A DNA stretch of 64,000 bases from a virus (Duplodnaviria > Heunggongvirae > Uroviricota > Caudoviricetes). Below are positions 11,309 through 62,327 of this stretch, in pieces; position 1 is the stretch's first letter, and every line of letters starts with the position of its first letter. Made by a program: the position numbers and the translations under genes. The notes under the pieces were generated by a model. The model saw only the letters and a list, made by a program, of their open reading frames with translations, had not been told where the DNA came from and ran no database searches. The DNA is taken from IMG/VR virus record IMGVR_UViG_3300022660_000062, positions 1 through 64,000 of that record; one strand, 5' to 3'.

Positions 11309-11524
11309 ATGAAGATGATTACAGCAAAAGGCTACAAAGCATTCCACGGCAAGATGCTTATTCAGCTTGCTCCAAGTGTAAAAGATGTTGCTCCATTTAT
11401 CGAGGGCCCATATGATTGGATCTATGATCCTGAAACAAATATGTGGTATTCAGATCATCATTCCTATTCCGGCAACGTAACTACTCCGTTGTTTGATGAT
11501 TGGAAAGACGAAAAAACAAGTTGA
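11309..11524 (+). CDS. Hypothetical small protein
   Basis: ORF with GAGGT RBS. Confidence 0.5.
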   Translation: MKMITAKGYKAFHGKMLIQLAPSVKDVAPFIEGPYDWIYDPETNMWYSDHHSYSGNVTTPLFDDWKDEKTS

Positions 11525-11625
11525 TTGTTTTAACAGTTTACAATATAATGTAAGTGTAGATAATAAATTTACAAATGAATTCTCAATCAAGTTATTACAT
11601 ATCTTTTATGAGGAGGAGTTTGTAA

Positions 11626-11868
11626 ATGAGTGAACTACGATATGCTACTGTACGAAAGTATGCTTCTCGTGAGTTAGCAAACAACAACTGTCAACATGCA
11701 ATAATTGGAGCAAAGATTGTTCAAGAGGATGGTCAGGCTGTTCTAGTTCTTGCAAGTAATCCTGATAGGATTGTTTACATTGTTGATGATGTGTCCTTTG
11801 AGAATTACATTCAGATGTTGTTTGATAAGTATCCACAGATTAATTCAATTTGTGCAGTTCATAGATAG
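11626..11868 (+). CDS. Hypothetical protein
   Basis: ORF with GAGGAGGAG RBS. Confidence 0.55.
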   Translation: MSELRYATVRKYASRELANNNCQHAIIGAKIVQEDGQAVLVLASNPDRIVYIVDDVSFENYIQMLFDKYPQINSICAVHR

Positions 11869-11872
11869 AAAC

Positions 11873-11948
11873 GGGCCATTAGCTCAACTGGCAGAGCATC
11901 TGGCTCATAACCGGACGGTTCAGGGTTCAATCCCCTGGTGGCCCACCA
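11873..11948 (+). tRNA. tRNA with anticodon CAT (elongator Met or Ile2-lysidine type)
   Basis: Acceptor GGGCCAT/GTGGCCC, D-arm GCTCAACTGGCAGAGC, anticodon stem TCTGG/CCGGA with loop CTCATAA, T-arm CAGGG-TTCAATC-CCCTG, CCA encoded. Confidence 0.8.
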
Positions 11949-12052
11949 CTATGTATCCATAACATAGTACCTCCTTTCAAATTAAAAGCCTCAATGTGGC
12001 ACAAGGCTCCAGCTGCAACTGGTTCAGGAGTGCCACACTTCTACGAAATATA

Positions 12053-12130
12053 TCCTTCAATGGTGCAGTTGGTAGACACCGCCTTGCTATGGAAAGGCGT
12101 TGCGTTGGTTCGAGTCCAACTTGATGGACC
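12053..12130 (+). tRNA. Atypical tRNA-like gene with 8-nt anticodon loop (GCTATGGA) and one acceptor mismatch
   Basis: Acceptor CCTTCAA/TTGATGG (one T-T mismatch), D-loop AGTTGGTAGA, anticodon stem GCCTT/AAGGC around an 8-nt loop, T-arm GTTGG-TTCGAGT-CCAAC, discriminator A, CCA encoded. Confidence 0.4.
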
Positions 12131-12237
12131 AGAATGTCGTAGATCTGAATCTAGGCGGGGTGGCGAAGTGCCCAAAATCCTCGTGAGGGCAATTGCAGGG
12201 GAGCTGCTTCTAGGGCTGAAGGCTCCTTACGACATCT
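12131..12237 (+). other. Structured element closed by a long inverted repeat (ATGTCGTAG...CTACGACAT)
   Basis: A 9-bp inverted repeat at 12134-12142 and 12227-12235 encloses about 85 nt of GC-rich sequence with internal hairpins (GGAGC...GCTCC, GGCGGGG...). No credible ORF. Confidence 0.3.
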
Positions 12238-12664
12238 AAATATGATGAGAGCTGGTTACTCTGCTGAGCGGTGAAACGATATATCTGCAGGCGGTGCGTG
12301 CACCTACACGACATCATATTTAGCGTTAACCGAACTCTTTACGTGAAGTTGAGTGACTCATACACAGGTAGCATTTACATTAAATCTGCTTCTATAAAGT
12401 TATGTTCAAGAGTTGTTAAGAGGATCTGTATGAGAGATCCGTCGGGTTGCAGCGTTTATTTAACAACAAATGAGCAGCATCATAGGCCACTGGCTTGTTA
12501 CACGACCTCAAGGCGAACAGATAAGATGGATGACGGTGTGGCAACGCAGACCAACTTACGGCTCTGTAACAAACTTGTATAATTGTTACATCTATAGATA
12601 GTGTCTAGGCGTTGAGTAGAGGAAATGTAACAAGTTAGTGGTACTAGTTGTTTTCTTAAGATCT

Positions 12665-12751
12665 GCGGGATTGCATGGAATGGTAGACAGGGCAGACTCA
12701 AAATCTGTTGCTCATAAGAGCGTGAGGGTTCGAGTCCCTCATCCCGCACCA
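12665..12751 (+). tRNA. tRNA-Leu (anticodon CAA)
   Basis: Acceptor GCGGGAT/ATCCCGC, Leu-type D-loop GGAATGGTAGAC, anticodon loop CTCAAAA, variable-arm hairpin GCTCATAAGAGC, T-arm GAGGG-TTCGAGT-CCCTC, discriminator A, CCA encoded. Confidence 0.8.
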
Positions 12752-12763
12752 TACAAAAGATAG

Positions 12764-12792
12764 TTGATTTAACTGTTATCATAAATTATAAT
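12764..12792 (+). promoter_or_regulatory. Sigma-A-type promoter (family consensus)
   Basis: TAGTTGATTTAACTGTTATCATAAATTATAAT; TTGATT-17-TATAAT. Confidence 0.55.
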
Positions 12793-12809
12793 AAGAATGT
12801 AAATAATTC

Positions 12810-13022
12810 ATGGAGGTTGATGTTATGCCAAAGCCTGATGGAACTCTTTACAGATGGGAGCTTGCCGAATTGCGCCAAGCGGAAGCAAGTTATGAAAGAG
12901 CTGTTCACAGAACAAAGATGACACAAGGATCCTCCTCTCAGCCCTACAATGAGGCGGCAGAGAAAGTTGCGTTTGCTCGTTTGCTATCCGCAAATACAAA
13001 GTATGGCGGATACAGACGTTAA
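12810..13022 (+). CDS. Hypothetical small protein
   Basis: ORF with GGAGGT RBS. Confidence 0.5.
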   Translation: MEVDVMPKPDGTLYRWELAELRQAEASYERAVHRTKMTQGSSSQPYNEAAEKVAFARLLSANTKYGGYRR

Positions 13023-13251
13023 CAGTTTTCTGTTAGCTGTATAAAACAGTTTGATTAGACGCTAAGTTGCAAGTCGCTTAGCAGCGAGTGAAGGCTTGCC
13101 GAAGAGTACAACTTGCATGAATGATTTGAAGAGGTAATTGCACTTCTTGTTGTTCTATGTAAGCCAGTTAGTTGACTCCACACCATTGATGGACTAGATG
13201 GTATCAAGTTGATCATTTCGTAGTATAACTATATAATCACTTTATAGATAA

Positions 13252-13277
13252 GCCCGTGTGGTGGAATAGGTAGACAC
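13252..13277 (+). pseudogene. tRNA-Leu-like 5' fragment (acceptor + D-arm only)
   Basis: GCCCGTG-TG-GTGGAATAGGTAGACAC breaks off after the D-arm. It is preceded by a TTGATC-17-TATAAT promoter and followed by the junction motif TTGTATATATTACTATAA (13290-13307), which is shared with 1113-1130. Confidence 0.6.
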
Positions 13278-13316
13278 TTTAATCTTTCGTTGTATATATT
13301 ACTATAAAATAAATTT

Positions 13317-13453
13317 GGCCCAATGGTGGAATTGGTAGACACAAGGGACTTGTTGGATGCCAGTGCTAATCGAGTAGGGGCAGCACCTACATCCGACACC
13401 AAAAATCCCTCGCTGGAGACAGCGTACCGGTTCGAGTCCGGTTTGGGCCACCA
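13317..13453 (+). tRNA. tRNA-Leu-like gene (inferred anticodon TAA) carrying a ~50-nt insertion in the anticodon loop
   Basis: Acceptor GGCCCAA/TTGGGCC is a perfect match, with Leu-type D-arm GTGGAATTGGTAGACAC and variable-arm hairpin CGCTGGAGACAGCG. T-arm is ACCGG-TTCGAGT-CCGGT, discriminator A, CCA encoded. Anticodon stem halves AGGGA (13344-13348) and TCCCT (13406-13410) are separated by 57 nt. Removing 13352-13401 restores a CTTAAAA loop. Confidence 0.5.
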
Positions 13454-13467
13454 GAAAGATCAATAGT

Positions 13468-14388
13468 ATGAGTACAAAAGAAGATTATAACTTATCTAGA
13501 CCAAGAATTGCGTGTCCTCATTGTGGTCGAGGAATAACAAAAGCTTGTTATGATCGGCATGTTTCAGTTTGTTTGAAAAATCAGTCACAGATCCAAAGAG
13601 AGTCTTACAAGTTAGATCATGATGGTTTGAATTGTAAGTTCTGTGGAAAGTTGTGCAAGAGCACAAACAGTTTGATACAACACGAAATCCGATGTAAAGA
13701 TAATCCCCATAGGAATTGTCATACCGCTTTGCAAGATCATGTTGCTAACAATGTTAGAGGTCAAACAAAGCATACATCTTTGCAGATACGGAAACAAAGT
13801 GAGCGCTTACAAGATCTGTATGCAAGTGGTGAGCTTATTCCTGCAAGTAAAGGAAAGCCTGGAAGCTTTTCCGGATGTAAACACAGCATAGAAACAAAAC
13901 GCAAGATTGGAGAACATGTTTCTGCGTCACGAAAAGCAGGATATGCTTCAGGTAGAATAACACCAGCAAAGGGTGTTGGTTGTGGTAAGTATTCTTACAT
14001 ACAGTACAAAGACAGAACGTACATGTTGCGAAGCACATACGAGTTCATCTATGCGCTGTATCTTTTGAAGAACGGTATTGAATTTGAACTGGAAGCTATT
14101 CGAGTTCCAGCAACAAATTCTTCTACTGTTTCAAACTCAACATTCATTTCAGATTTTAGTTACGATAACAAGGTTGTAGAAATCAAGGGAATTCCAAGCG
14201 AAAAAGACTCATGTATAAAAGATGCATTTGAGTCCGCTGGATATACATTTGTAGAACTATTTGAATCTGATATCGCTATCTATAAAGAGTGGCTGAAATC
14301 AAACAATATTCCTATCGATGAATTACTAGTTAAAATCAAAGATCATCATGACAAGAAAGACTATTTTGTCTTCACATTTGATAACTAG
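13468..14388 (+). CDS. Homing-endonuclease-like protein (C2HC zinc fingers + NUMOD3-like motif + PD-(D/E)XK-like C-terminal domain)
   Basis: Motifs CPHCGRG...H and CKFCGKLCKSTNSLIQHEIRC, NUMOD3-like FSGCKHSIETKRKIGEHVS, and a C-terminal STYEFIYALYLL...VVEIKG nuclease-like domain. It is a paralog of the ORFs at 1152, 15055 and 21881. Confidence 0.7.
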   Translation: MSTKEDYNLSRPRIACPHCGRGITKACYDRHVSVCLKNQSQIQRESYKLDHDGLNCKFCGKLCKSTNSLIQHEIRCKDNPHRNCHTALQDHVANNVRGQTKHTSLQIRKQSERLQDLYASGELIPASKGKPGSFSGCKHSIETKRKIGEHVSASRKAGYASGRITPAKGVGCGKYSYIQYKDRTYMLRSTYEFIYALYLLKNGIEFELEAIRVPATNSSTVSNSTFISDFSYDNKVVEIKGIPSEKDSCIKDAFESAGYTFVELFESDIAIYKEWLKSNNIPIDELLVKIKDHHDKKDYFVFTFDN

Positions 14389-14656
14389 TTGTTTATACCA
14401 ATCGCTTGATTCCTGTAGCGTTTGAAACCGCCAATAATGCGACCCAGCGACTAATGTCGCTGCTAAGTGAGGCGTACGAGGAAAGAAGGGTTGAGCGATA
14501 CAAAGCGTCTTGCTTTTGTTACTTTTTCTTCTGGCGCAGAATACTAAAAGTATCCGTAACGATGCAATACTTCCTAAGACGTGACAGGGTTAGGGATAAG
14601 TAAAATCCGACGACAAATCATGGTTGACTGCTGGAATAGACAGCTATTTTTAACAT

Positions 14657-14747
14657 GGAGCGGTACCCAAGTGGTGAAGGGGGCAGTTTGCTAAACTGCT
14701 AGGCGGTTAACAGCCGTGCAAGGGTTCGAACCCCTCCCGCTCCGCCA
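14657..14747 (+). tRNA. tRNA-Ser (anticodon GCT)
   Basis: Acceptor GGAGCGG/CCGCTCC, discriminator G, 3-bp D-stem, anticodon loop TTGCTAA, long variable arm, T-loop GTTCGAA, CCA encoded. Confidence 0.8.
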
Positions 14748-15054
14748 ATTCATTCAAAGGCGGTAAGATGGAAAAGTTAACTCCCGAGATTGAAAACTTA
14801 CTAGCTGGAACATTCAAGCTCCGACAAACACTATCTTCTGTACTTCCTCCCGAAGCAGTTGATTACATTATTGAATTGATTGCAAAGGATGGCGCACATA
14901 GAAAATTCTTGGAGATTACAAATATGCAAGATTAAGTTGATTGTTTACATAGTACATTATATAATGTTGACGTGGTTACTAGATAGTTTATGCGGTTAGT
15001 CTTGTTTTATTCATTGTATAATATGTTATATAATTCTTCCGGAGTTTGTAACAT

Positions 15055-15726
15055 ATGTACATTTGCCCATTTTGTAACAAAGAATGCAAAAATCAAAACA
15101 GTTTAACAAATCATAAACGATTTTGTAAACTCAATCCAGACCATATTATTATGCCACCTCATAGGAAAGGCATTCCTTCATGGAATAGTGGCTTGACAAG
15201 CAAAGATGATTCTAGAATTCTTTGTGGTTCAGAATTATCAGATGCAGTTAAACAGGGAATGATGAATTCTAATTATATCCCAACAGGACGAGCTTCAACC
15301 GATGAGAAAGAACAACTAAGAAGACAAAAGTTGTCCGTGGTAGCAAAAGAAAGAAACTTGGGTGGATATGTTCCAGGCTCTGGAAGAGGCAAGAAGGGTT
15401 GGTATAAAGGATTTTTCTGCGATTCTACATATGAGTTAGTTTATGTAATCTTCAATCTTGATAACGGTATACCATTCAAGAAATGTCAGAAAGTTTATCA
15501 ATATCTGATTGATGGTGAAACTCATAACTATCATCCTGATTTTGAATTAGCAGATGGGACGCTTGTTGAGATAAAAGGTTATCATAACAGTCTTGTTGAT
15601 ATAAAAGCTGCATCTGTTGTAGATACAAAAATTGACATTCTTTATGAGTCAGACTTGAAGTATGCATTTGACTGGGTTGAAAGTCATTATGAATACAAAG
15701 AATTATCTGACTTATATGAAAAATAA
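15055..15726 (+). CDS. Homing-endonuclease-like protein (C2HC zinc finger + PD-(D/E)XK-like domain)
   Basis: Motif CPFCNKECKNQNSLTNHKRFC, then STYELVYVIF...PDFELADGTLVEIKG. Preceded by an ATTGTATAATATGTTATATAA junction-like motif. Paralog family. Confidence 0.7.
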   Translation: MYICPFCNKECKNQNSLTNHKRFCKLNPDHIIMPPHRKGIPSWNSGLTSKDDSRILCGSELSDAVKQGMMNSNYIPTGRASTDEKEQLRRQKLSVVAKERNLGGYVPGSGRGKKGWYKGFFCDSTYELVYVIFNLDNGIPFKKCQKVYQYLIDGETHNYHPDFELADGTLVEIKGYHNSLVDIKAASVVDTKIDILYESDLKYAFDWVESHYEYKELSDLYEK

Positions 15727-15927: not shown

Positions 15928-17598
15928 ATGACCTGTATGAGCAAATTGTCTAATGCAGCAATGGAAATGCGTGAAGAGGCAACTCTGCGCAGAGACGAAA
16001 CCGTCGTCAATTTTATGGGTGGTGACTCTTATGTTATCAACCCTCTGGACACCTTGAAGATGATTACCGCGTCTTCTATTTATGGTGAGCCTTCCTATTA
16101 TCGGGATAGTGCTAGCGCAAAGAAGACTTGCGGTAAATACACTCTGGATAGTCGGTATGTTACTGACTCTGTTATTCCTTCCGAGTATGAAGGTAAGCAG
16201 ACCAATGTGGTTATGGAGGAGGCAATTGATGCCGCTCTGAACTACGATTTTGCAGGAACTTTGCAGTGGGCAATTGAATTGCGTAATGAGTTCAATATGC
16301 GCTTGAATCCTCAGGTAATCATGGTTCGGGCTGCCCTGCATCCGAAGCGTGCTGAGTTTACTGCAGCAAATCCTGGTGAGTTTGATAAGATCAATCAGCA
16401 GGTGATGTCTCGTGCCGATGAGCCGATGACTCAGATGGCTTACTACTTGTACAAGAACAAGGGCAAGAAGAACAACATTCCTTCTGTTATTAAGCGCTCT
16501 TGGGCAACTAAGCTGAGTAAGCTCGGCAGATATCCTGTTGCTAAGTACAAGAATCATGAAATCGGCATGATCAATGCGGTTCGTTTGTGTCATGCAAACT
16601 CAGCTGTCATTGATGAACTGATGACTTCTGGCACTGTTGAGGTGTCTGAAGATAAGAAGACTTGGGAGAATCTTCGCTCCGAAGGCAAGTCTTGGAAGGA
16701 AATTTTCCAGACTGTTGATATGGGTCACATGGCTCTACTTCGTAACCTGCGCGGTGTATTCAGCGAGGTAGACGATGTAGCATTCTGTAAGGAATATCTG
16801 GATAAGCTGAAGGCTGGTGTTCTTACCGGCAAACAGTTCCCGTTCCGTTACTATGCAGCAATGAATGCTGTTAACAGCAGTAGCAAGTGCAATCATCGTT
16901 CTATGATCATTGATGCTCTGGAGGAGTGCTTTGACATTGCTCTTGAGAACTATCCTAAGTTAAAGGGCAAGACGATGTGTCTGTCTGATAACTCCGGGTC
17001 TGCTTGGGGCACAATGAACTCTGAGTATGGCACTGTTACAATTGCAGAAATTGACAACTTGTCTTCCGTTATTACTGCAGCTTGCTCCGAAGATGGTTAT
17101 GTTGGTGAATTTGGTGACAGACTCATTGTTCATCCTGTTAGCAAGCGTCAGGGCGTCCTGAATCAAGCCAAGCAGATCTCTATGGATCGCGGTCGTAAGG
17201 TTGGTGGTTCCACCGAGGGTGGTATCTGGGAGTTCTTCTACAATGCTATCCAGAACAAGGAACATTGGGATAACATCTTCATCTACTCTGACCAGCAAGC
17301 AGGCCATGGTGGTTTGTATGGTACTTCCACTCAGTCTGCTAAGTACTCCAAGGCAGGATTCGGCTGCGGTAGTGCATGGGGTGGCAACTACATCAACGTG
17401 TATAAGTTGATCCTGGAGTACCGTAAGAAGGTTAATCCTCATGTTAACGTCTTCTCTATTCAGACTGCAGGTTATGATAACATTGTAATTCCTGAAATGG
17501 CTTATCGTACTGCTATTCAGTATGGTTGGACCGGCAAGGAAGCGGTGTTTGCCTCTGAATACATTCGTCAGTGGAATGACATTGAAAACCGTAACTAA
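15928..17598 (+). CDS. rsr: Ro60 (Rsr) homolog: TROVE domain + vWA domain with MIDAS motif
   Basis: N-terminal TROVE signature NFMGGDSYVINPLDTLKMITASSIYGEPSYY; C-terminal vWA with MIDAS-like DNSGSAWG; AAGGAG RBS. The minus-strand ORF 15910-16593 is an antisense artefact. Confidence 0.85.
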   Translation: MTCMSKLSNAAMEMREEATLRRDETVVNFMGGDSYVINPLDTLKMITASSIYGEPSYYRDSASAKKTCGKYTLDSRYVTDSVIPSEYEGKQTNVVMEEAIDAALNYDFAGTLQWAIELRNEFNMRLNPQVIMVRAALHPKRAEFTAANPGEFDKINQQVMSRADEPMTQMAYYLYKNKGKKNNIPSVIKRSWATKLSKLGRYPVAKYKNHEIGMINAVRLCHANSAVIDELMTSGTVEVSEDKKTWENLRSEGKSWKEIFQTVDMGHMALLRNLRGVFSEVDDVAFCKEYLDKLKAGVLTGKQFPFRYYAAMNAVNSSSKCNHRSMIIDALEECFDIALENYPKLKGKTMCLSDNSGSAWGTMNSEYGTVTIAEIDNLSSVITAACSEDGYVGEFGDRLIVHPVSKRQGVLNQAKQISMDRGRKVGGSTEGGIWEFFYNAIQNKEHWDNIFIYSDQQAGHGGLYGTSTQSAKYSKAGFGCGSAWGGNYINVYKLILEYRKKVNPHVNVFSIQTAGYDNIVIPEMAYRTAIQYGWTGKEAVFASEYIRQWNDIENRN

Positions 17599-19689: not shown

Positions 19690-19784
19690 GCTCCCGTAGC
19701 TCAATTGGTAGAGCGGCGGATTTATACTCCGTTTAGCACCAGATTAGTGCAAGGTTCTCGGTTCGAGTCCGAGTGGGAGTACCA
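19690..19784 (+). tRNA. tRNA with anticodon TAT (AUA-decoding, Ile-like) carrying a ~19-nt hairpin insertion between anticodon stem and variable loop
   Basis: Type-I body: acceptor GCTCCCG/TGGGAGT (GU pairs at both ends), D-arm GCTCAATTGGTAGAGC, anticodon stem GCGGA/TCCGT with loop TTTATAC. An extra TTAGCACCAGATTAGTGCA sits before AGGTT. T-arm CTCGG-TTCGAGT-CCGAG, CCA encoded. Confidence 0.5.
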
Positions 19785-20645: not shown

Positions 20646-20724
20646 ACATCCGTAGCTCAGTAGGAATTAGAGCGCTTGACTACGAATCAAGAGGTCGTGG
20701 GTTCGAGTCCAGCCGAGGACACCA
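20646..20724 (+). tRNA. tRNA-Arg (anticodon ACG)-like gene with non-complementary acceptor stem (probable pseudogene or chimeric 3' end)
   Basis: All arms have canonical lengths. The 5' acceptor ACATCCG resembles E. coli tRNA-Arg GCATCCG, with D-arm GCTCAGTAGGAATTAGAGC and anticodon stem CTTGA/TCAAG around loop CTACGAA. The 3' acceptor CGAGGAC cannot pair with the 5' strand, and the T-stem GTGGG/CCAGC has one mismatch. Confidence 0.5.
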
Positions 20725-21836: not shown

Positions 21837-21880
21837 TTATTGTATATAAATATGCATAAGTAATAATGGAGCATATTTAT

Positions 21881-22564
21881 ATGAGCGAAGAAACTAAGTT
21901 TCAGTGTGAATACTGTAATAAAATATGCAAAAATGCTAATAGTTTAGCACAGCATCAGATAAGATGTTCTTCAAATCCAAATAGAATTCACTCTTCCTTT
22001 GTTGCTGGTTTTAATACAAAAGGAAGACAAGCTTGGAATACTGGGCGTACAAAAGAAACAGATGAGCGTGTGGCAAAACAAGCGGAACAACAACGCAAGT
22101 TTTATGAAACACATCCTGGAACATTTACAGGAAAGACTCATACTGAAACATATAAGTTAATGATGAGTGAACTTGCTCATGAACGAGGCCTTGGTGGGTT
22201 CAATATGAGAAGCAAGGGCATTCATTATCATGGATCAAAATTAGATTCAACTTATGAGCTAGCTGTTGCTCAGTCTCTTGATGAAAACAGTATTGTTTGG
22301 GAGAGACCAAAATCATTTACATATGTTGGATTTGATAACAAACAACATAGATATGTCCCTGATTTCTATCTTCCAGATTATGACATTTATCTTGATCCGA
22401 AAAATGATTTTCTAATCAACAATGTTAATCCTGGTCTTGGTTACAATGACTGTGACAAGATTAAACTTGTTGAACATCAGTTGGGAATTAGAGTCTTAAT
22501 TCTTGATTCAGAGCATCTTACATGGGACAAGATAAAATCTAAGATTGATGCCGAAGTCCCATAG
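21881..22564 (+). CDS. Homing-endonuclease-like protein (C2HC zinc finger + NUMOD3-like + PD-(D/E)XK-like domain)
   Basis: Motifs CEYCNKICKNANSLAQHQIRC, FTGKTHTETYKLMMSELAHERGLGG, and STYELAVAQSL...YVPDFYLPDYDIYLDPKNDF. GGAG RBS before the ATG at 21881. The 3' end (stop at 22562-22564) overlaps the first 15 nt of the tRNA at 22550. Confidence 0.7.
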   Translation: MSEETKFQCEYCNKICKNANSLAQHQIRCSSNPNRIHSSFVAGFNTKGRQAWNTGRTKETDERVAKQAEQQRKFYETHPGTFTGKTHTETYKLMMSELAHERGLGGFNMRSKGIHYHGSKLDSTYELAVAQSLDENSIVWERPKSFTYVGFDNKQHRYVPDFYLPDYDIYLDPKNDFLINNVNPGLGYNDCDKIKLVEHQLGIRVLILDSEHLTWDKIKSKIDAEVP

Positions 22565-22648: not shown

Positions 22649-22676
22649 TTGACAAGTGCATAGTAAAATATATAAT
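22649..22676 (+). promoter_or_regulatory. Strong consensus sigma-A promoter (TTGACA-16-TATAAT) driving a noncoding region
   Basis: CTTGACAAGTGCATAGTAAAATATATAATC. Confidence 0.6.
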
Positions 22677-22677
22677 C

Positions 22678-23430
22678 ATTGACAACTCAGTGCAGAACGA
22701 ATACCATCGTGCTGAGAACTCGATCCTGCCTGCGGGCGCCTGGAATGCGAAAAACATTCACGAACGATAGCTTGTGATAGCTAGAGGGTTTATGGAGTGA
22801 TTCATAGATTCCGCCTCTGAACTGAGGTCCAGGATGGAAGGGTGTGCTGACATAGTTGTAATCAAAGATACCGTCTTATCGCTCCCACAATAGACAGCTT
22901 GGTTAACAGCCGAGCCGAATCCAAGTTAGGTATTAGCTGGTGACTGTTACAAACCTTGGAAAGACCAACAAGGAAGTTTGCGTTGATCCCTCAGCAATGA
23001 GGAGTATAAGATAAGGTCGGAGGTGCGAGTAGCTCAAACGCAGTCGACTTAAGATGAAAAAATGCTATAAAGAGCTTGTAGATAGTAATAGAAAGTTACT
23101 AATATCAAATTTCTGAATGGCGAGTGAAAGTTGCAAGTAATCAGTCTTGTACAGGAATTATAATGGAGAACGGTGAGTGAGCCTTAAGGTCAAGCCGATG
23201 GCTCCTCAAGGAAGTTGGAAGGCTTCTGGGGCAAGAAGTTTATAGTGGACGCATTGTAAGCTCAGACTTGTCTCCCTGTTGATCGAATATGGTTGAAGGC
23301 TAAACAGTTGGTAAGGCGAAGGCCTGTTGATGAACTTATATATTTTACTATGTGCTTGTCGTGCGTTTTCATTCCTCCTTTCGTGATAACGAGCTTGTCG
23401 ATTATTCGGCGAGCTCGTTATTTGTTTGTT
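22678..23430 (+). ncRNA. About 750-nt promoter-to-terminator transcript with no credible ORF (unclassified structured RNA)
   Basis: It lies between the consensus promoter at 22649-22676 and the terminator at 23388-23430. GC is locally elevated with many short hairpins (CCTCTGAACTGAGG, GGCGCC, AGTCGACT). Only spurious short or antisense ORFs are present. Confidence 0.35.
23388..23430 (+). terminator. Rho-independent terminator
   Basis: AACGAGCTTGTCGATTATTCGGCGAGCTCGTT followed by ATTTGTTTGTTT. Confidence 0.55.
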
Positions 23431-50348: not shown

Positions 50349-51332
50349 ATGTATCTGGCTCTACCAACAAGTATCCATGTAGATACAGTAAATCCACCTA
50401 CAAGGACGAACTGCTTGTGGCTATGTACAACTCCGATACGAGTGATTCCTGTAACAGGAACATTCATCGAAGAATCTACAATGAATGCTGAATCTTTTAC
50501 TTCGTTTATTACTAATGACTCTTTTCAAGTATATGAGTTCAACACATACCCTGTTATCAAATTTTATGTTCAAACAAGTAATAGTTGGGAAGACGTTATT
50601 ACAAATAATACATACAACATCACCATGAATATGTCAGGATGCTTCGGATACTCTACCAACCCAACAGAGATTGATGAAGGCGATAGTGCAACGCTTTACT
50701 TCCAGGCAAATGCAGGGTATTCCTTGCCGACTAGTATCTATGTAAGTGGGGCGGAATATGACTGGAACTGGTCTGTCGGGGAATTGATCCTTCGTAATCC
50801 CACAGGCCCGGTGTATGTAAGTATAAGTTGTGTGGGGAATTGCTGTTTTGCGGCAGGGACACCTGTATTGATGAGTAACGGTACTTTCAAAAACATTGAA
50901 AACATTGTAGCTGGCGACATCGTTATAACATTCAATGAAGAATCCGAGGTATATGAGCCTGGAACGGTTATATACTTCTTTGTTAAGCCAAACACGCAGG
51001 ATATGGCGAAGCTGATATTTGAAGACGGCACAGAAATAACTATGAACGCATATCACCCGATGTATACGACTGACGGCTGGAAATCGCTGACAGGAAGCGG
51101 AGGTCTGCCGATCCTGACGAAGGAGGACACAATTCTTTCGACCGACAAGAAGTGGGTGAAAATATCGGACATTGTGCGGTGGTTCAGCGATGAATATATC
51201 ACAACTTACAACCTTGATGTCGAGAATAACGACAACTACTTTGTAGGAAAGACACCAGTAATGGCAAGCAATGTCGAATCCTGCTTTGTTCCTTCGCCTG
51301 GCATAAAACCTGCACCTGAGATAACAGTATGA
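50349..51332 (+). CDS. Bacterial intein-like (BIL)/Hint-domain protein with about 165-aa N-terminal domain
   Basis: Hint block A (CCFAAGTPVLMSNG...IENIVAGDIVITF) and C-terminal intein-like block (YNLDVENNDNYFVGKTPVMASN) followed by a short extension. AAAGGAG RBS. GC higher than neighbours. Confidence 0.6.
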   Translation: MYLALPTSIHVDTVNPPTRTNCLWLCTTPIRVIPVTGTFIEESTMNAESFTSFITNDSFQVYEFNTYPVIKFYVQTSNSWEDVITNNTYNITMNMSGCFGYSTNPTEIDEGDSATLYFQANAGYSLPTSIYVSGAEYDWNWSVGELILRNPTGPVYVSISCVGNCCFAAGTPVLMSNGTFKNIENIVAGDIVITFNEESEVYEPGTVIYFFVKPNTQDMAKLIFEDGTEITMNAYHPMYTTDGWKSLTGSGGLPILTKEDTILSTDKKWVKISDIVRWFSDEYITTYNLDVENNDNYFVGKTPVMASNVESCFVPSPGIKPAPEITV

Positions 51333-61121: not shown

Positions 61122-62327
61122 ATGATCATGACCTACACTATTCACTCTGTTCTTCTTGAGCGTTTCGAGAATAAGCTGAAGAGCTTCCAGCGTAAGTTCG
61201 CCAAGTATGGAGACGGAAAGCTCGTGTACTCCGTTTCCGAGCCATACATCTACGAGTTCGATGCTAACGTTGATGGCTCTATTGAGGCATTTGATGGCCG
61301 TGAAGTTATCGACATTACTGTCGAGGGTGAATACAAGATCAACGATTATGAGTTCGTTGCAGCTCTTCAGTTTGATTCTGAGTCTGGTCGTAACATCGTC
61401 AATGGCGGCAACGTTCCTGAGGAGTTCCTGACTCGGTGCGCTTGTGATCATTGTAAGACGAGTCGTGCTCGAGTTCGGACAATCATTCTTCGCAATGGCG
61501 ATGAATACATCCAGGTCGGTAATTCCTGTGTGAAGGATTACCTCGGTGTCAACATTGAGCGATATGCAAGTTATCTGAGCTTCTGGCATGATCTGGAGGA
61601 GTTGGAAGAGGACAACAAGATGATGATTGTCTCCGCTCGTCCTGCTTATCTTGTTGAAGATGTGCTGTTGGAAACTGCGTGGCGTGTTGCTAAGTCTGGC
61701 TATGTCAGTAAGGAGAAGGCCTGGGAGTGGGAAGTTGATGCAACTTCTAGCGCTGTTTGGAATGCTCTCCATTCTCATATCAATCATGAGTACACCGATG
61801 AGCACAGAGCCGCTGTTGCAGCTGTTGTTGAATTTGTCAACAGTCAGGATGAAGACTTCGGTTATGTTTCTAATCTGAAGTCTCTGATCAACAACAAGTA
61901 TGTTACTAACAAGAACTTCGGATTGCTGGTTAGTTCCTTTGGATACTATGCTGCAGAGATGCGTAAACTGGAAAGAGAAAAGGCTGAACAAGTTACTGCT
62001 AATAGCCAGTGGATTAAATCTGTTGGTGAAAAGATTAAATTTGTTGCACAGCCTACTCTGATCTTCTCTATGGAAACTCAGTGGGGTTACTCTTACTTGT
62101 ATAGATTCATCTTGGATGGCAACGAGCTGATTTGGAAAACCGGAACTTGGCTGGACACTGACATCGAGTATGAAGTTTCTGGAACCATCAAAGCTCACAA
62201 TGAATATCGTGGCAAGAAGCAGACTGAACTCACTCGTTGCAGAGTTAAAGAAATTGCTCGCAAGTTCAAGGAAGAGAAAGTTGACACTGATGTTTCTGAA
62301 ACTCCTGATTGGTGGAACATGATTTAA
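61122..62327 (+). CDS. Hypothetical protein (401 aa)
   Basis: ORF with AAGAGGAGGT RBS. The overlapping 465-aa minus-strand ORF (61092-62489) is judged an antisense artefact. Confidence 0.65.
   Translation: MIMTYTIHSVLLERFENKLKSFQRKFAKYGDGKLVYSVSEPYIYEFDANVDGSIEAFDGREVIDITVEGEYKINDYEFVAALQFDSESGRNIVNGGNVPEEFLTRCACDHCKTSRARVRTIILRNGDEYIQVGNSCVKDYLGVNIERYASYLSFWHDLEELEEDNKMMIVSARPAYLVEDVLLETAWRVAKSGYVSKEKAWEWEVDATSSAVWNALHSHINHEYTDEHRAAVAAVVEFVNSQDEDFGYVSNLKSLINNKYVTNKNFGLLVSSFGYYAAEMRKLEREKAEQVTANSQWIKSVGEKIKFVAQPTLIFSMETQWGYSYLYRFILDGNELIWKTGTWLDTDIEYEVSGTIKAHNEYRGKKQTELTRCRVKEIARKFKEEKVDTDVSETPDWWNMI

What the first reader, a model, noticed from the sequence alone, without database searches (positions are those of the whole stretch)
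13252..13453. tRNA-Leu gene with a 50-nt insertion in the anticodon loop, preceded by a promoter-driven 5' tRNA fragment
The tRNA at 13317-13453 has a perfect acceptor, Leu-type D-arm, variable hairpin, T-arm and encoded CCA. Its anticodon stem halves AGGGA and TCCCT are separated by 57 nt instead of 7. Deleting 13352-13401 yields the loop CTTAAAA, which is tRNA-Leu(UAA). The insertion lies between positions 34 and 35, the site used by group I introns in cyanobacterial and plastid tRNA-Leu(UAA), but 50 nt is far too small for a group I intron. The insert forms an extended hairpin (GGATG...CATCC enclosing GTGCT...AGCAC). Twenty-five nt upstream, a promoter drives a 26-nt duplicate of a tRNA-Leu 5' end (acceptor plus D-arm only). 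This could be a new type of small bacterial/phage tRNA intervening sequence, a split-tRNA arrangement, or a disabled gene.
Basis: partly seen in the sequence, partly recalled or inferred. Interest (0 to 1): 0.8.

Follow-up and report, generated by a model that had tools for sequence, protein, structure and literature searches.

The report
Miniature tRNA nested inside phage tRNA
A jumbo-phage tRNA-Leu gene is interrupted in its anticodon loop by a conserved 50-nt element that is itself shaped like the top half of a tRNA and ends in CCA, which points to a previously undescribed kind of tRNA intron that the cell's ordinary tRNA-trimming enzymes may cut out.

Summary
Window 13317-13453 is a tRNA-Leu(UAA) with a 50-nt insert (13352-13401) after U34 (Rfam 42.8 bits; ARAGORN intron mode).

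The insert is not a random indel, a group I intron or a bulge-helix-bulge intron. I found about 37 distinct relatives in phage and metagenome contigs, all in tRNA anticodon loops, after position 32, 34 or 35. Hosts are Leu-UAA, Gln-UUG, Ile-UAU and amber-suppressor CUA tRNAs.

All share one covariation-supported fold:
- a 7-bp stem whose first base is the 5' junction;
- a 3-bp arm with a CAGU loop;
- a 5-bp arm with a 7-nt GGCAGCA loop;
- a tail NCCA whose last A is the 3' junction.

This is an anticodon-arm-less mini-tRNA. Related contigs even carry complete tRNAs nested the same way. Closely related phages have the orthologous gene with or without the insert, and the indel matches these boundaries exactly. 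Removing it in silico restores a canonical tRNA in 36 of 37 cases.

My inferred mechanism is RNase P cutting at the 5' junction, a CCA-respecting 3' endonuclease, and sealing by a phage RNA ligase. This is untested. The upstream 26-nt tRNA fragment is a relic of another allele, and the promoter claim is at chance level.

The parts
13317..13351 (+). 5' exon of tRNA-Leu(UAA): acceptor 5' strand, D-arm, anticodon-stem 5' strand and loop nucleotides C32 U33 U34
   Evidence: Rfam tRNA match. ARAGORN intron mode. The sequence itself.
13352..13401 (+). 50-nt mini-tRNA-like intervening element. P1 5' strand 13352-13358. P2 13359-13366 (G-C and C-G pairs closing the CAGU loop 13361-13364). Linker 13367-13373. 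P3 stem 13374-13378 with 13386-13390, loop GGCAGCA 13379-13385. P1 3' strand 13391-13397. Tail ACCA 13398-13401.
   Evidence: Covariance model R1 hit of 46.8 bits, E 1.9e-10. On 35 distinct relatives, 96.7% of cells are paired against 32-41% in the slid controls, and 13 of 15 pairs change on both sides. The indel boundaries at an orthologous locus are the same kind, from the first base of P1 to the last base of CCA.
13402..13453 (+). 3' exon of tRNA-Leu(UAA): loop nucleotides A35 A36 A37 A38, anticodon-stem 3' strand, long variable hairpin, T-arm, acceptor 3' strand, and the encoded ACCA
   Evidence: The joined exons are called tRNA-Leu(taa), 87 nt, by ARAGORN.
13252..13277 (+). Relic 5' fragment (acceptor strand plus D-arm) of a different tRNA-Leu(UAA) allele. 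It is not part of the functional unit.
   Evidence: It is 24/26 identical to the 5' ends of tRNA-Leu(UAA) genes of related phages (L102, L011, L347) but only 21/26 to the resident gene. No matching T-arm or 3' remnant lies downstream.

Best explanation
The 50 nt at 13352-13401 are a member of a previously undescribed family of tRNA-shaped intervening sequences in the anticodon loops of tRNAs of large gut and rumen-type phages.

The element folds as the 'top half' of a tRNA. It has a 7-bp acceptor-like stem, a small D-like arm (CAGU loop), a 5-bp T-like arm with a 7-nt loop (GGCAGCA), and a 3' tail ACCA. It has no anticodon arm. Its first nucleotide is the 5' junction and the A of CCA is the 3' junction.

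Shown here: the family, its fold, its exact boundaries, its presence or absence at orthologous loci, and a size continuum from mini elements up to complete tRNAs nested in the same way.

Inferred, not shown:
1. The primary transcript is processed like a tRNA inside a tRNA. RNase P cuts 5' of the element's +1 nucleotide, leaving 3'-OH on U34.
2. A 3' tRNA-processing endonuclease that respects CCA (RNase Z/BN-like) cuts right after A76 of the element, leaving 5'-phosphate on A35.
3. The nicked anticodon loop, held together by the outer tRNA body, is sealed by a phage 3'-OH/5'-P RNA ligase of the Rnl1 or Rnl2 type.
4. The products are mature tRNA-Leu(UAA) plus a free 50-nt mini-tRNA.

Mini elements are most simply degenerate nested tRNAs that kept only the parts RNase P and the 3' enzymes recognise.
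For: - Real tRNA with the insert.
- About 37 distinct relatives were found with sequence patterns and a covariance model. All lie in anticodon loops of phage tRNAs, after position 32, 34 or 35.
- The three-helix fold has strong covariation: 96.7% paired, 13 of 15 pairs with compensatory changes, covariation score 0.924 against about 0.1 for the slid controls. G-U pairs show the structure is on this RNA strand.
- Removing the element from P1 nucleotide 1 to the A of CCA gives a standard tRNA with a 7-nt loop in 36 of 37 cases.
- Orthologous tRNA-Leu genes in closely related contigs differ by exactly this element.
- Three complete tRNAs are nested in the anticodon loops of other complete tRNAs under the same end rule. 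Intermediates of 56-77 nt exist.
- In an ARAGORN intron-mode census, 103 unique intron calls had a terminal stem of at least 6 of 7 pairs followed by a 4-nt tail. The tails were ACCA 58, GCCA 11, TCCA 6, ACAA 4 and CCCA 1.
- The same GGCAGCA-type T-loop occurs in free-standing complete tRNAs of these phages.
- Related intron-bearing contigs encode T4 Rnl1-family and PF09414 RNA ligases within about 10 kb of the tRNA arrays.
- Precedent: RNase P cleaves an internal tRNA-like module with a 7-bp acceptor stem in M. smegmatis YrlA (PMC4201824).
- No Rfam ribozyme or intron family matches the insert.
Against: - There are no RNA data, so neither splicing nor any cleavage site has been observed.
- No RNA ligase was found in the 64-kb window or in the roughly 20 kb I could add.
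- The phage encodes a Tpt1/KptA RNA 2'-phosphotransferase just past the window end. That fits a cyclic-phosphate 'heal-and-seal' pathway with a 2'-phosphate junction better than RNase P/Z ends.
- An endonuclease that cuts exactly after an encoded CCA is documented for only some bacteria (my own knowledge), and the host is unknown.
- Loop sequences (CAGU, GGCAGCA) are more conserved than RNase P recognition alone would need. That could mean a dedicated protein.
- A few family members end in ACAA rather than CCA.
- Invariance of CCAGTG, GGGCAGCAC and CCA in the main set is partly forced by the search pattern.
Confidence: 0.55

Rival explanations
1. It is a protein-spliced intron that uses a dedicated (phage or host) metal-independent endonuclease. 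That enzyme recognises the conserved CAGU and GGCAGCA loops and leaves 2',3'-cyclic phosphate and 5'-OH ends. The ends are then healed and sealed (cyclic phosphodiesterase, kinase, Rnl-type ligase), and the junction 2'-phosphate is removed by the phage Tpt1/KptA.
For: - Tpt1/KptA (PF01885; phrog_5470, E 9e-73) is encoded about 1.2 kb past the window end.
- Jumbo phages are known to carry such RNA-repair kits (PMC7824862).
- Loop sequences are strongly conserved.
- Four paralogous zinc-finger plus PD-(D/E)XK-like nuclease ORFs lie in the tRNA island. One is directly downstream of this tRNA, and its homologue is directly downstream of the intron-bearing tRNA in L135.
Against: - This does not explain why the element mimics an acceptor stem with NCCA.
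- It does not explain why complete, ordinary tRNAs with canonical T-loops are nested under the same end rule.
- The nuclease paralogues are present or absent independently of the intron and look like free-standing homing endonucleases.
- KptA and ligases are general anti-defence RNA-repair genes.
Confidence: 0.2
2. The element's main purpose is the released (or embedded) mini-tRNA itself. It could be a Y-RNA-like partner of the neighbouring Ro60/TROVE-like protein, or a decoy for tRNA-directed host defences. The outer tRNA would then serve mainly as carrier and processing scaffold.
For: - A phrog_850 'RNA-binding protein' (Pfam DUF2828+DUF7788, MIDAS motif DxSxS; weak TROVE match in the window copy) lies within the held DNA in 23 of 61 related loci.
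- In eight of those loci its stop codon is only about 70-125 nt upstream of the intron-bearing tRNA-Leu. In the window it lies 2.5 kb downstream.
- Bacterial Y RNAs are tRNA-like and are encoded next to Ro60 genes (PMC4201824).
Against: - Of the 80 closest relatives of this protein in viral contigs, the covariance model finds the mini element only in the closest 15. ARAGORN adds a few divergent copies, and most loci have plain tRNAs instead.
- There is no Rfam Y RNA or YrlA match in the window.
- The topology differs from YrlA.
- The exons stay perfect tRNAs with covarying anticodon stems, so the outer tRNA is under selection.
- No solved Ro structure matches the protein by sequence.
Confidence: 0.12
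3. It is not removed at all. The gene is a disabled tRNA or a selfish DNA insertion tolerated in a redundant tRNA gene. Alternatively, the 50 nt form a small self-cleaving or self-splicing ribozyme.
For: - The insert is present or absent between close relatives, as expected for a mobile insertion.
- The phage has a second Leu tRNA, Leu(CAA), at 12665-12751.
- No expression data exist.
Against: - RNA-level covariation with G-U pairs in three helices across deep divergence.
- The exons always rebuild a canonical 7-nt loop whose anticodon fits the tRNA body.
- Anticodon-stem strands in the two exons covary between lineages: AGGGA/UCCCU, ACAGA/UCUGU, GCGGA/UCCGC and others.
- The locus is identical in 8 other contigs from several samples.
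- No Rfam ribozyme matches at E up to 1.
- Nested full tRNAs lack any shared ribozyme core.
Confidence: 0.08

Closest known systems
Group I intron of tRNA-Leu(UAA) (cyanobacteria, plastids, some phages)
   Same: Same host tRNA and, in the window, the same insertion site (U34|A35). A real group I intron with an HNH ORF occupies exactly this site in the orthologous gene of contig L389.
   Different: The element is 50 nt rather than more than 200. It has no P1-P9 core and no Rfam Intron_gpI match. Relatives insert at positions 32, 34 and 35. The fold is tRNA-like and ends in NCCA.
Archaeal and eukaryal bulge-helix-bulge tRNA introns (EndA/TSEN plus RtcB or Trl1/Tpt1)
   Same: It is a short, protein-dependent-looking intron in the anticodon loop. 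Its position varies and recognition seems to depend on intron structure. A Tpt1 homologue is encoded by the phage.
   Different: No bulge-helix-bulge can form, because only 1-4 exon nucleotides precede the 5' junction. The junctions lie at the base of a 7-bp stem and after a 4-nt 3' tail. The element is found in phages of bacteria, where no splicing endonuclease is known.
tRNA-like modules excised by RNase P and RNase Z from longer RNAs (mascRNA from MALAT1, mitochondrial tRNA punctuation, the tRNA-like domain of M. smegmatis YrlA)
   Same: An embedded tRNA-shaped module with a 7-bp acceptor stem defines the cleavage sites. RNase P cleavage of such an internal module is documented for YrlA (PMC4201824).
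   Different: Here the module sits inside another tRNA's anticodon loop. The flanks would therefore have to be religated to make a functional product, and that is not known for any of these systems. CCA is encoded, not added.
T4-type anticodon-loop repair (PrrC nick, Pnkp, Rnl1)
   Same: The proposed last step is the sealing of a nick in a tRNA anticodon loop by a phage RNA ligase. Rnl1-family and Rnl2-like ligases are encoded near the tRNA arrays of related intron-bearing contigs.
   Different: In T4 the break is damage inflicted by a host nuclease. Here it would be a programmed processing step, with a whole RNA module removed.
Theta (minimal HDV-like) ribozymes next to phage tRNAs
   Same: These are small (about 50-60 nt) structured RNAs associated with tRNAs, including suppressor tRNAs, of gut phages (PMC10879173, listed).
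   Different: Theta ribozymes flank tRNAs and have a double-pseudoknot fold. This element is inside the anticodon loop, has a three-helix tRNA-like fold, and gives no ribozyme match in Rfam.

Membership tests
tRNA (Rfam RF00005), outer gene | Cloverleaf with acceptor, D, anticodon and T arms, scoring above the family threshold | tested here: met
   42.8 bits against gathering score 29, with the insert treated as a loop insertion. The joined exons are called tRNA-Leu(taa), 87 nt.
Group I intron | Conserved catalytic core P3-P9, usually more than 200 nt, matching Rfam Intron_gpI | tested here: not met
   The insert is 50 nt. There is no Intron_gpI match at E up to 1 in 11500-15000. As a positive control, L389 gives Intron_gpI at 35.4 bits, E 6e-7.
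Group I intron | Insertion after U34 of tRNA-Leu(UAA) | tested here: met
   The window insert lies between U34 and A35. Relatives, however, also insert after positions 32 and 35.
Bulge-helix-bulge (archaeal/eukaryal) tRNA intron | Two 3-nt bulges carrying the splice sites, separated by a 4-bp helix | tested here: not met
   Read directly from the sequences. Only 3 exon nucleotides (CUU) in the window, and 1 in the L102 type, separate the anticodon stem from the 5' junction. The 5' junction is the first base of a 7-bp stem, and the 3' junction follows a 4-nt single-stranded tail.
Bulge-helix-bulge (archaeal/eukaryal) tRNA intron | Presence of an EndA/Sen-type splicing endonuclease | not tested
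   No Pfam hit to a splicing endonuclease appeared among the window ORFs scanned or in the top-25 family list for neighbour ORFs. Most of the roughly 223-kb genome and the host could not be examined.
RNase P / tRNA 3'-end processing substrate (tRNA minihelix mimic) | 7-bp acceptor-like stem continuous on its 3' strand with a 5-bp stem and 7-nt loop (12-bp stack), followed by N73-CCA | tested here: met
   P1 (7 bp) and P3 (5 bp plus 7-nt loop) are supported by covariation, and the P3 3' strand runs directly into the P1 3' strand. The tail is ACCA in 34 of 35 and CCCA in 1.
RNase P / tRNA 3'-end processing substrate (tRNA minihelix mimic) | Actual cleavage by RNase P at +1 and by a 3' endonuclease after CCA | not testable with these tools
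   This needs biochemistry or RNA-end sequencing.
Y RNA / YrlA | Encoded next to a Ro60 (TROVE) gene | tested here: inconclusive
   A phrog_850 protein lies near the element in 23 of 61 loci and in the window. Most loci of that protein family lack the element. The TROVE assignment is itself weak: Pfam E 5e-4, below threshold, and no match to solved structures.
Y RNA / YrlA | Ro-binding stem formed by the RNA's 5' and 3' ends, with the conserved motif GNCGAAN0-1G; match to the Rfam Y RNA models | tested here: not met
   There is no Y RNA family match in the window. The motif is not present in the 50 nt (read from the sequence; motif as given in PMC4201824).
Small self-cleaving ribozymes (hammerhead, twister, pistol, hatchet, HDV-like) | Match to the family covariance model | tested here: not met
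   No such match at E up to 1 in 11500-15000.

The most novel reading that the evidence does not exclude
A third route of tRNA splicing exists in phages of bacteria. The intron is itself a tRNA, complete or reduced to its acceptor/T/D 'top half'. The universal tRNA end-processing enzymes (RNase P and a CCA-respecting 3' nuclease) release it, and a phage RNA ligase reseals the host tRNA's anticodon loop. One gene therefore yields two tRNA-shaped RNAs. Maturation of the outer tRNA, including amber suppressors, becomes dependent on phage-encoded repair enzymes, which could time decoding capacity or recoding during infection.
Probability: 0.45. Interest if true: 0.95.

Novelty: categorically new. 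Interest (0 to 1): 0.88.

Why it matters
Bacterial and phage tRNA introns are thought to be group I ribozymes only, and enzyme-spliced tRNA introns are considered an archaeal and eukaryal trait.

A family of tRNA-shaped introns, with complete tRNAs nested in the anticodon loops of other tRNAs, would add a new gene architecture and probably a new splicing pathway built from RNase P, 3' processing and RNA-repair ligases.

- It gives phage RNA ligases and Tpt1/KptA a possible housekeeping substrate beyond damage repair.
- It explains why standard annotation misses these tRNAs. ARAGORN's default mode skipped this one.
- Some hosts are amber-suppressor tRNAs, so it may bear on how recoded phages control suppressor maturation.
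- The hypothesis can be tested directly with a 137-nt transcript and commercially available enzymes.

Tried and rejected
- Megablast and blastn of the locus against 50,697 phage records found no insert-bearing relative. The one promising partial hit, MT840028, had no element.
- The first degenerate pattern (15 specified bases) returned mostly chance hits.
Presence in bacterial genomes therefore remains unknown.
- ARAGORN mitochondrial mode does not call the 35 mini elements as tRNAs, because they have no anticodon arm.
- The HDV-like idea was rejected. The apparent P2 partner CGCUGG in the variable arm is specific to the window.
- A pseudoknot between the CCAGUG segment and the GGCAGCA loop was rejected. 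There is no conserved complementarity.
- Walking the rest of the roughly 223-kb genome to find a ligase failed, because look-ups are limited to window proteins. The 401-aa ORF at 61122-62327 near Tpt1 has no ligase motifs.
- A specific link between the Ro-like gene and the element was tested and weakened.
- Eight literature searches found no description of tRNA-like or nested tRNA introns in phages. The library is incomplete, so prior description cannot be excluded.

Full report
**1. The observation.**
The window is part of a roughly 223-kb phage genome. It has a dense tRNA island: 21 tRNAs by default ARAGORN, all on the + strand between positions 396 and 22635. Default ARAGORN does not report anything at 13317-13453.

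Rfam's tRNA model does, at 42.8 bits (gathering score 29), with an insertion in the anticodon loop. ARAGORN in intron mode calls tRNA-Leu(taa) at 13317-13453 with a 50-nt intron, 13352-13401, after U34. The anticodon-stem halves AGGGA (13344-13348) and TCCCT (13406-13410) are 57 nt apart.

The precursor folds better than shuffles (z = -3.5).

**2. It is a family, not an accident.**
A pattern made from the exons plus a gap found a second phage contig (L001). It has a 49-nt insert at the same place, a conserved core and a covarying outer stem. A refined pattern, CCAGTG-N9-13-GGGCAGCAC-N12-CCA, was then used:
- 30 stretches in viral contigs and 109 in metagenome contigs (that scan used the stricter ...N11-ACCA ending).
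- After a simple stem filter these collapse to 43 distinct sequences.
- About 37 of them lie in tRNA anticodon loops. The remainder are GC-rich coding-sequence chance hits.

No cultured-phage record contains the element. No Rfam family other than tRNA matches the region at E up to 1.

**3. Anatomy.**
All copies share this layout:
- a 7-nt strand;
- 0-1 nt of spacer;
- a 3-bp arm closing the tetraloop CAGU;
- a 3-7 nt linker;
- a 5-bp stem with the 7-nt loop GGCAGCA;
- the 3' strand of that stem running directly into the 7-nt partner of the first strand;
- a 4-nt tail, ACCA in 34 of 35 and CCCA in 1.

I tested this on an N-padded structural alignment of 35 distinct copies (A2). Results were 96.7% of cells paired, against 32-41% when partners are slid by 1-3 columns. 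Thirteen of 15 pairs changed on both sides. The covariation score was 0.924 against about 0.1, and 0 of 500 shuffles reached the observed values. G-U pairs are frequent, so the structure belongs to this RNA strand.

Caveat: the invariance of CCAGTG, GGGCAGCAC and CCA in this set is imposed by the search pattern. A covariance model (R1) found divergent copies with other loop sequences:
- AAGU and GGCAGUA;
- CAGA and GUCAUCA.

ARAGORN intron mode found still others, with loops CAAA and GUUAUCA and the tail ACAA. The fold is what is conserved. In the window:

| Part | Coordinates |
|---|---|
| P1 | 13352-13358 with 13391-13397 |
| P2 | 13359-13360 with 13365-13366 |
| P2 loop CAGU | 13361-13364 |
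| P3 | 13374-13378 with 13386-13390 |
| P3 loop | 13379-13385 |
| Tail ACCA | 13398-13401 |

**4. The boundaries are exact.**
I cut each element from the first base of P1 to the A of CCA and joined the flanks. This gives an ARAGORN-callable tRNA with a 7-nt anticodon loop in 36 of 37 cases. They are mostly Leu(UAA), plus Gln(UUG), Ile(UAU) and amber-suppressor CUA.

The junction falls after position 32, 34 or 35. So the position within the loop varies, but the element's own ends always define the cut. The two strands of the anticodon stem, which lie in different exons, covary between lineages.

The strongest evidence comes from contigs whose neighbouring Ro-like protein is about 90% identical. 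There the orthologous tRNA-Leu(UAA) gene occurs with the 47-nt element (L380, L384, L391) or without it (L383, L387). The flanks are otherwise near-identical, and the indel is exactly 'P1 base 1 ... CCA' between CTT and AAAA.

The insert is an indel between relatives, but it is a conserved, structured one.

**5. What the fold is: a tRNA without an anticodon arm.**
Seven base pairs stacked on five base pairs plus a 7-nt loop, followed by N-CCA, is the acceptor/T-arm minihelix of a tRNA. The small CAGU arm sits where a D-arm would. Three observations make this more than an analogy:
- (a) **Complete tRNAs nested the same way.** I deleted every ARAGORN-called tRNA from the related loci and re-ran ARAGORN on the joined flanks. 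This revealed three cases in which a complete tRNA sits in the anticodon loop of another complete tRNA, again from acceptor base 1 to CCA. They are suppressor CUA inside Ile(UAU) in L137, an unassigned tRNA inside Lys(UUU) in L289, and Lys(UUU) inside Gln(UUG) in L128.
- (b) **Intermediates.** Inserts of 56-77 nt with degenerate middle hairpins exist. In a census of ARAGORN intron calls, 103 unique cases have a terminal stem of at least 6 of 7 pairs followed by a 4-nt tail. The tails were ACCA 58, GCCA 11, TCCA 6, ACAA 4 and CCCA 1.
- (c) **Shared T-loop.** Free-standing complete tRNAs of these phages sometimes use the same unusual T-loop. Examples are GGCAGCA in a Cys tRNA of L303 and a Pro tRNA of L128, and GUCAGUA in a Gly tRNA of L050.

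The mini element is most simply a nested tRNA that has lost everything except the acceptor, T and D parts.

**6. Mechanism (inference).**
The retained parts are exactly those that RNase P and the tRNA 3'-end enzymes use to recognise a substrate (established knowledge). RNase P cuts 5' of the first acceptor base. This has been shown for a tRNA-like module with a 7-bp acceptor stem embedded in M. smegmatis YrlA (PMC4201824).

A cut right after an encoded CCA by an RNase Z/BN-type enzyme would release the element with a mature 3' end. Such a cut is reported for some bacteria; that statement rests on my own knowledge and was not checked here. Both enzymes leave 3'-OH and 5'-phosphate ends. The result would be an outer tRNA with a clean nick in its anticodon loop, which is the preferred substrate of T4 Rnl1-type ligases.

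Related element-bearing contigs encode RNA ligases within about 10 kb of their tRNA arrays:
- an Rnl1-family ligase at L140 712-1812 (PF09511, E 2e-19);
- a PF09414 ligase at L102 12560-13735.

I therefore favour RNase P, then a 3' endonuclease, then ligase. None of these steps is shown.

Several points count against this or leave it open:
- No ligase was found in the window or in the roughly 20 kb I could add.
- The phage encodes Tpt1/KptA just beyond the window (L376 11048-11665). That hints at junction 2'-phosphates, meaning a cyclic-phosphate route. Such genes are also known as general RNA-repair equipment of jumbo phages (PMC7824862).
- The conserved loops might be read by a dedicated protein.

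**7. Rivals.**
- **Bulge-helix-bulge intron.** This is excluded by geometry (section 4).
- **Group I intron.** This is excluded by size and by Rfam. Instructively, contig L389 carries a genuine group I intron with an HNH ORF at the very same U34|A35 site of the orthologous gene. This tRNA therefore exists in three states: uninterrupted, with the mini-tRNA element, and with a group I intron.
- **Ribozyme.** Nothing supports this, and the nested ordinary tRNAs argue against it.
- **Dead gene.** This is contradicted by covariation, by exon conservation, and by identity of the locus in eight further contigs from several samples.
- **Y-RNA-like partner of the Ro-like protein.** A role for the released mini-tRNA remains possible as an addition. 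That protein (phrog_850; DUF2828+DUF7788) is the commonest neighbour and sometimes ends only 70-125 nt upstream. However, most loci of that protein family lack the element.

**8. The upstream fragment.**
13252-13277 is a genuine piece of a tRNA-Leu(UAA) 5' end, with the acceptor strand and D-arm. It is 24/26 identical to the genes of related phages but 21/26 to the resident gene 39 nt downstream. It has no 3' counterpart.

It looks like the stump of an older allele. The rest was probably replaced when the present gene arrived, perhaps together with the endonuclease-like ORF at 13468-14388, whose homologue also follows the tRNA in L135. The 'promoter' hexamers are at chance frequency. One of them is simply the TAGACA of the relic's D-loop.

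**9. Novelty and limits.**
Rfam 15 has no model for the element. Eight full-text searches found no description of tRNA-like or nested tRNA introns in phages. The library is incomplete, so an existing report cannot be ruled out.

Everything about expression and processing is inference from sequence. The comparative facts are solid:
- the family exists;
- the fold is supported by covariation;
- the boundaries are exact;
- complete tRNAs are nested under the same rule;
- the element is present or absent at orthologous loci.

Noticed in passing
window 22662-23344 (+): Full-length ROOL RNA (Rfam RF03087, 281.9 bits, E 1.5e-63) at the end of the tRNA island.
   Followed up: no
window 15928-17598 (+): 556-aa ORF matching phrog_850 'RNA-binding protein' (E 7.8e-44) with a weak Pfam TROVE match and a vWA MIDAS motif, so Ro60-like. 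The same protein family (DUF2828+DUF7788) is the commonest neighbour of element-bearing tRNAs in related contigs, sometimes ending 70-125 nt upstream of them. Most loci of the family nevertheless lack the element.
   Followed up: yes
L376 11048-11665 (about 1.2 kb beyond window position 63858): The phage encodes a Tpt1/KptA RNA 2'-phosphotransferase (PF01885; phrog_5470, E 9e-73). This is the enzyme that removes the junction 2'-phosphate in yeast- and plant-type tRNA splicing.
   Followed up: partly
L137 2702-2855 (-), L289 295-445 (-), L128 13625-13775 (+): Complete tRNAs nested in the anticodon loops of other complete tRNAs. Inner and outer are each callable by ARAGORN on their own: suppressor CUA inside Ile-UAU, an unassigned tRNA inside Lys-UUU, and Lys-UUU inside Gln-UUG.
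   Followed up: yes
L389 6621-7500 (+): The orthologous tRNA-Leu(UAA) carries an insertion of about 870 nt after U34, with an HNH endonuclease ORF and a group I intron core (Intron_gpI 35.4 bits, E 6e-7). It sits at the same site where relatives have the mini-tRNA element or nothing.
   Followed up: partly
L395-L459 (e.g. L419 4467-4582, L412 4269-4386, L123 651-769): A second, unrelated class of insertions of about 34-55 nt occurs in tRNAs of related phages. It consists of a short GC-rich hairpin followed by (U/A)ACAGCAA. In the examples inspected it lies between the D-arm and an intact anticodon arm (around position 26), and those tRNAs lack an encoded CCA. A similar 'hairpin + CACAGCAA' stretch lies at window ~490-530, between tRNA-Gln and tRNA-Asn.
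   Followed up: partly
L303 (- strand, 76 nt), L128 13165-13238, L050 (- strand, 74 nt), L126 outer tRNA: Free-standing complete tRNAs (Cys-GCA, Pro-UGG, Gly-UCC, suppressor CUA) have non-canonical T-loops (GGCAGCA, GGCAGUA or GUCAGUA) instead of UUCRANY. ARAGORN does not call them.
   Followed up: partly
window 1152-1700, 13468-14388, 15055-15726, 21866-22564 (+): Four paralogous ORFs with an N-terminal C2H2-type zinc finger and a PD-(D/E)XK / phage endonuclease I-like C-terminal part (phrog_15137, phrog_22215) are scattered among the tRNA genes. They look like free-standing homing endonucleases. The one after the interrupted tRNA has a 53%-identical homologue after the interrupted tRNA of L135 but is absent from L102, L129 and L133.
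   Followed up: partly
window 2697-2788, 19690-19784, 12054-12131, 20651-20715: Several odd tRNAs: tRNA-Trp(CCA) of 92 nt with a long class-II-like variable arm; tRNA-Ile(UAU) of 95 nt with a very long variable region; a tRNA with a 6-nt anticodon loop left unassigned by ARAGORN; and a partial tRNA match covering model positions 6-65.
   Followed up: no
window 50349-51332 (+): An ORF with Hint/intein-like domain matches (PT-HINT, Vint, Hom_end_hint), seen in the Pfam scan.
   Followed up: no
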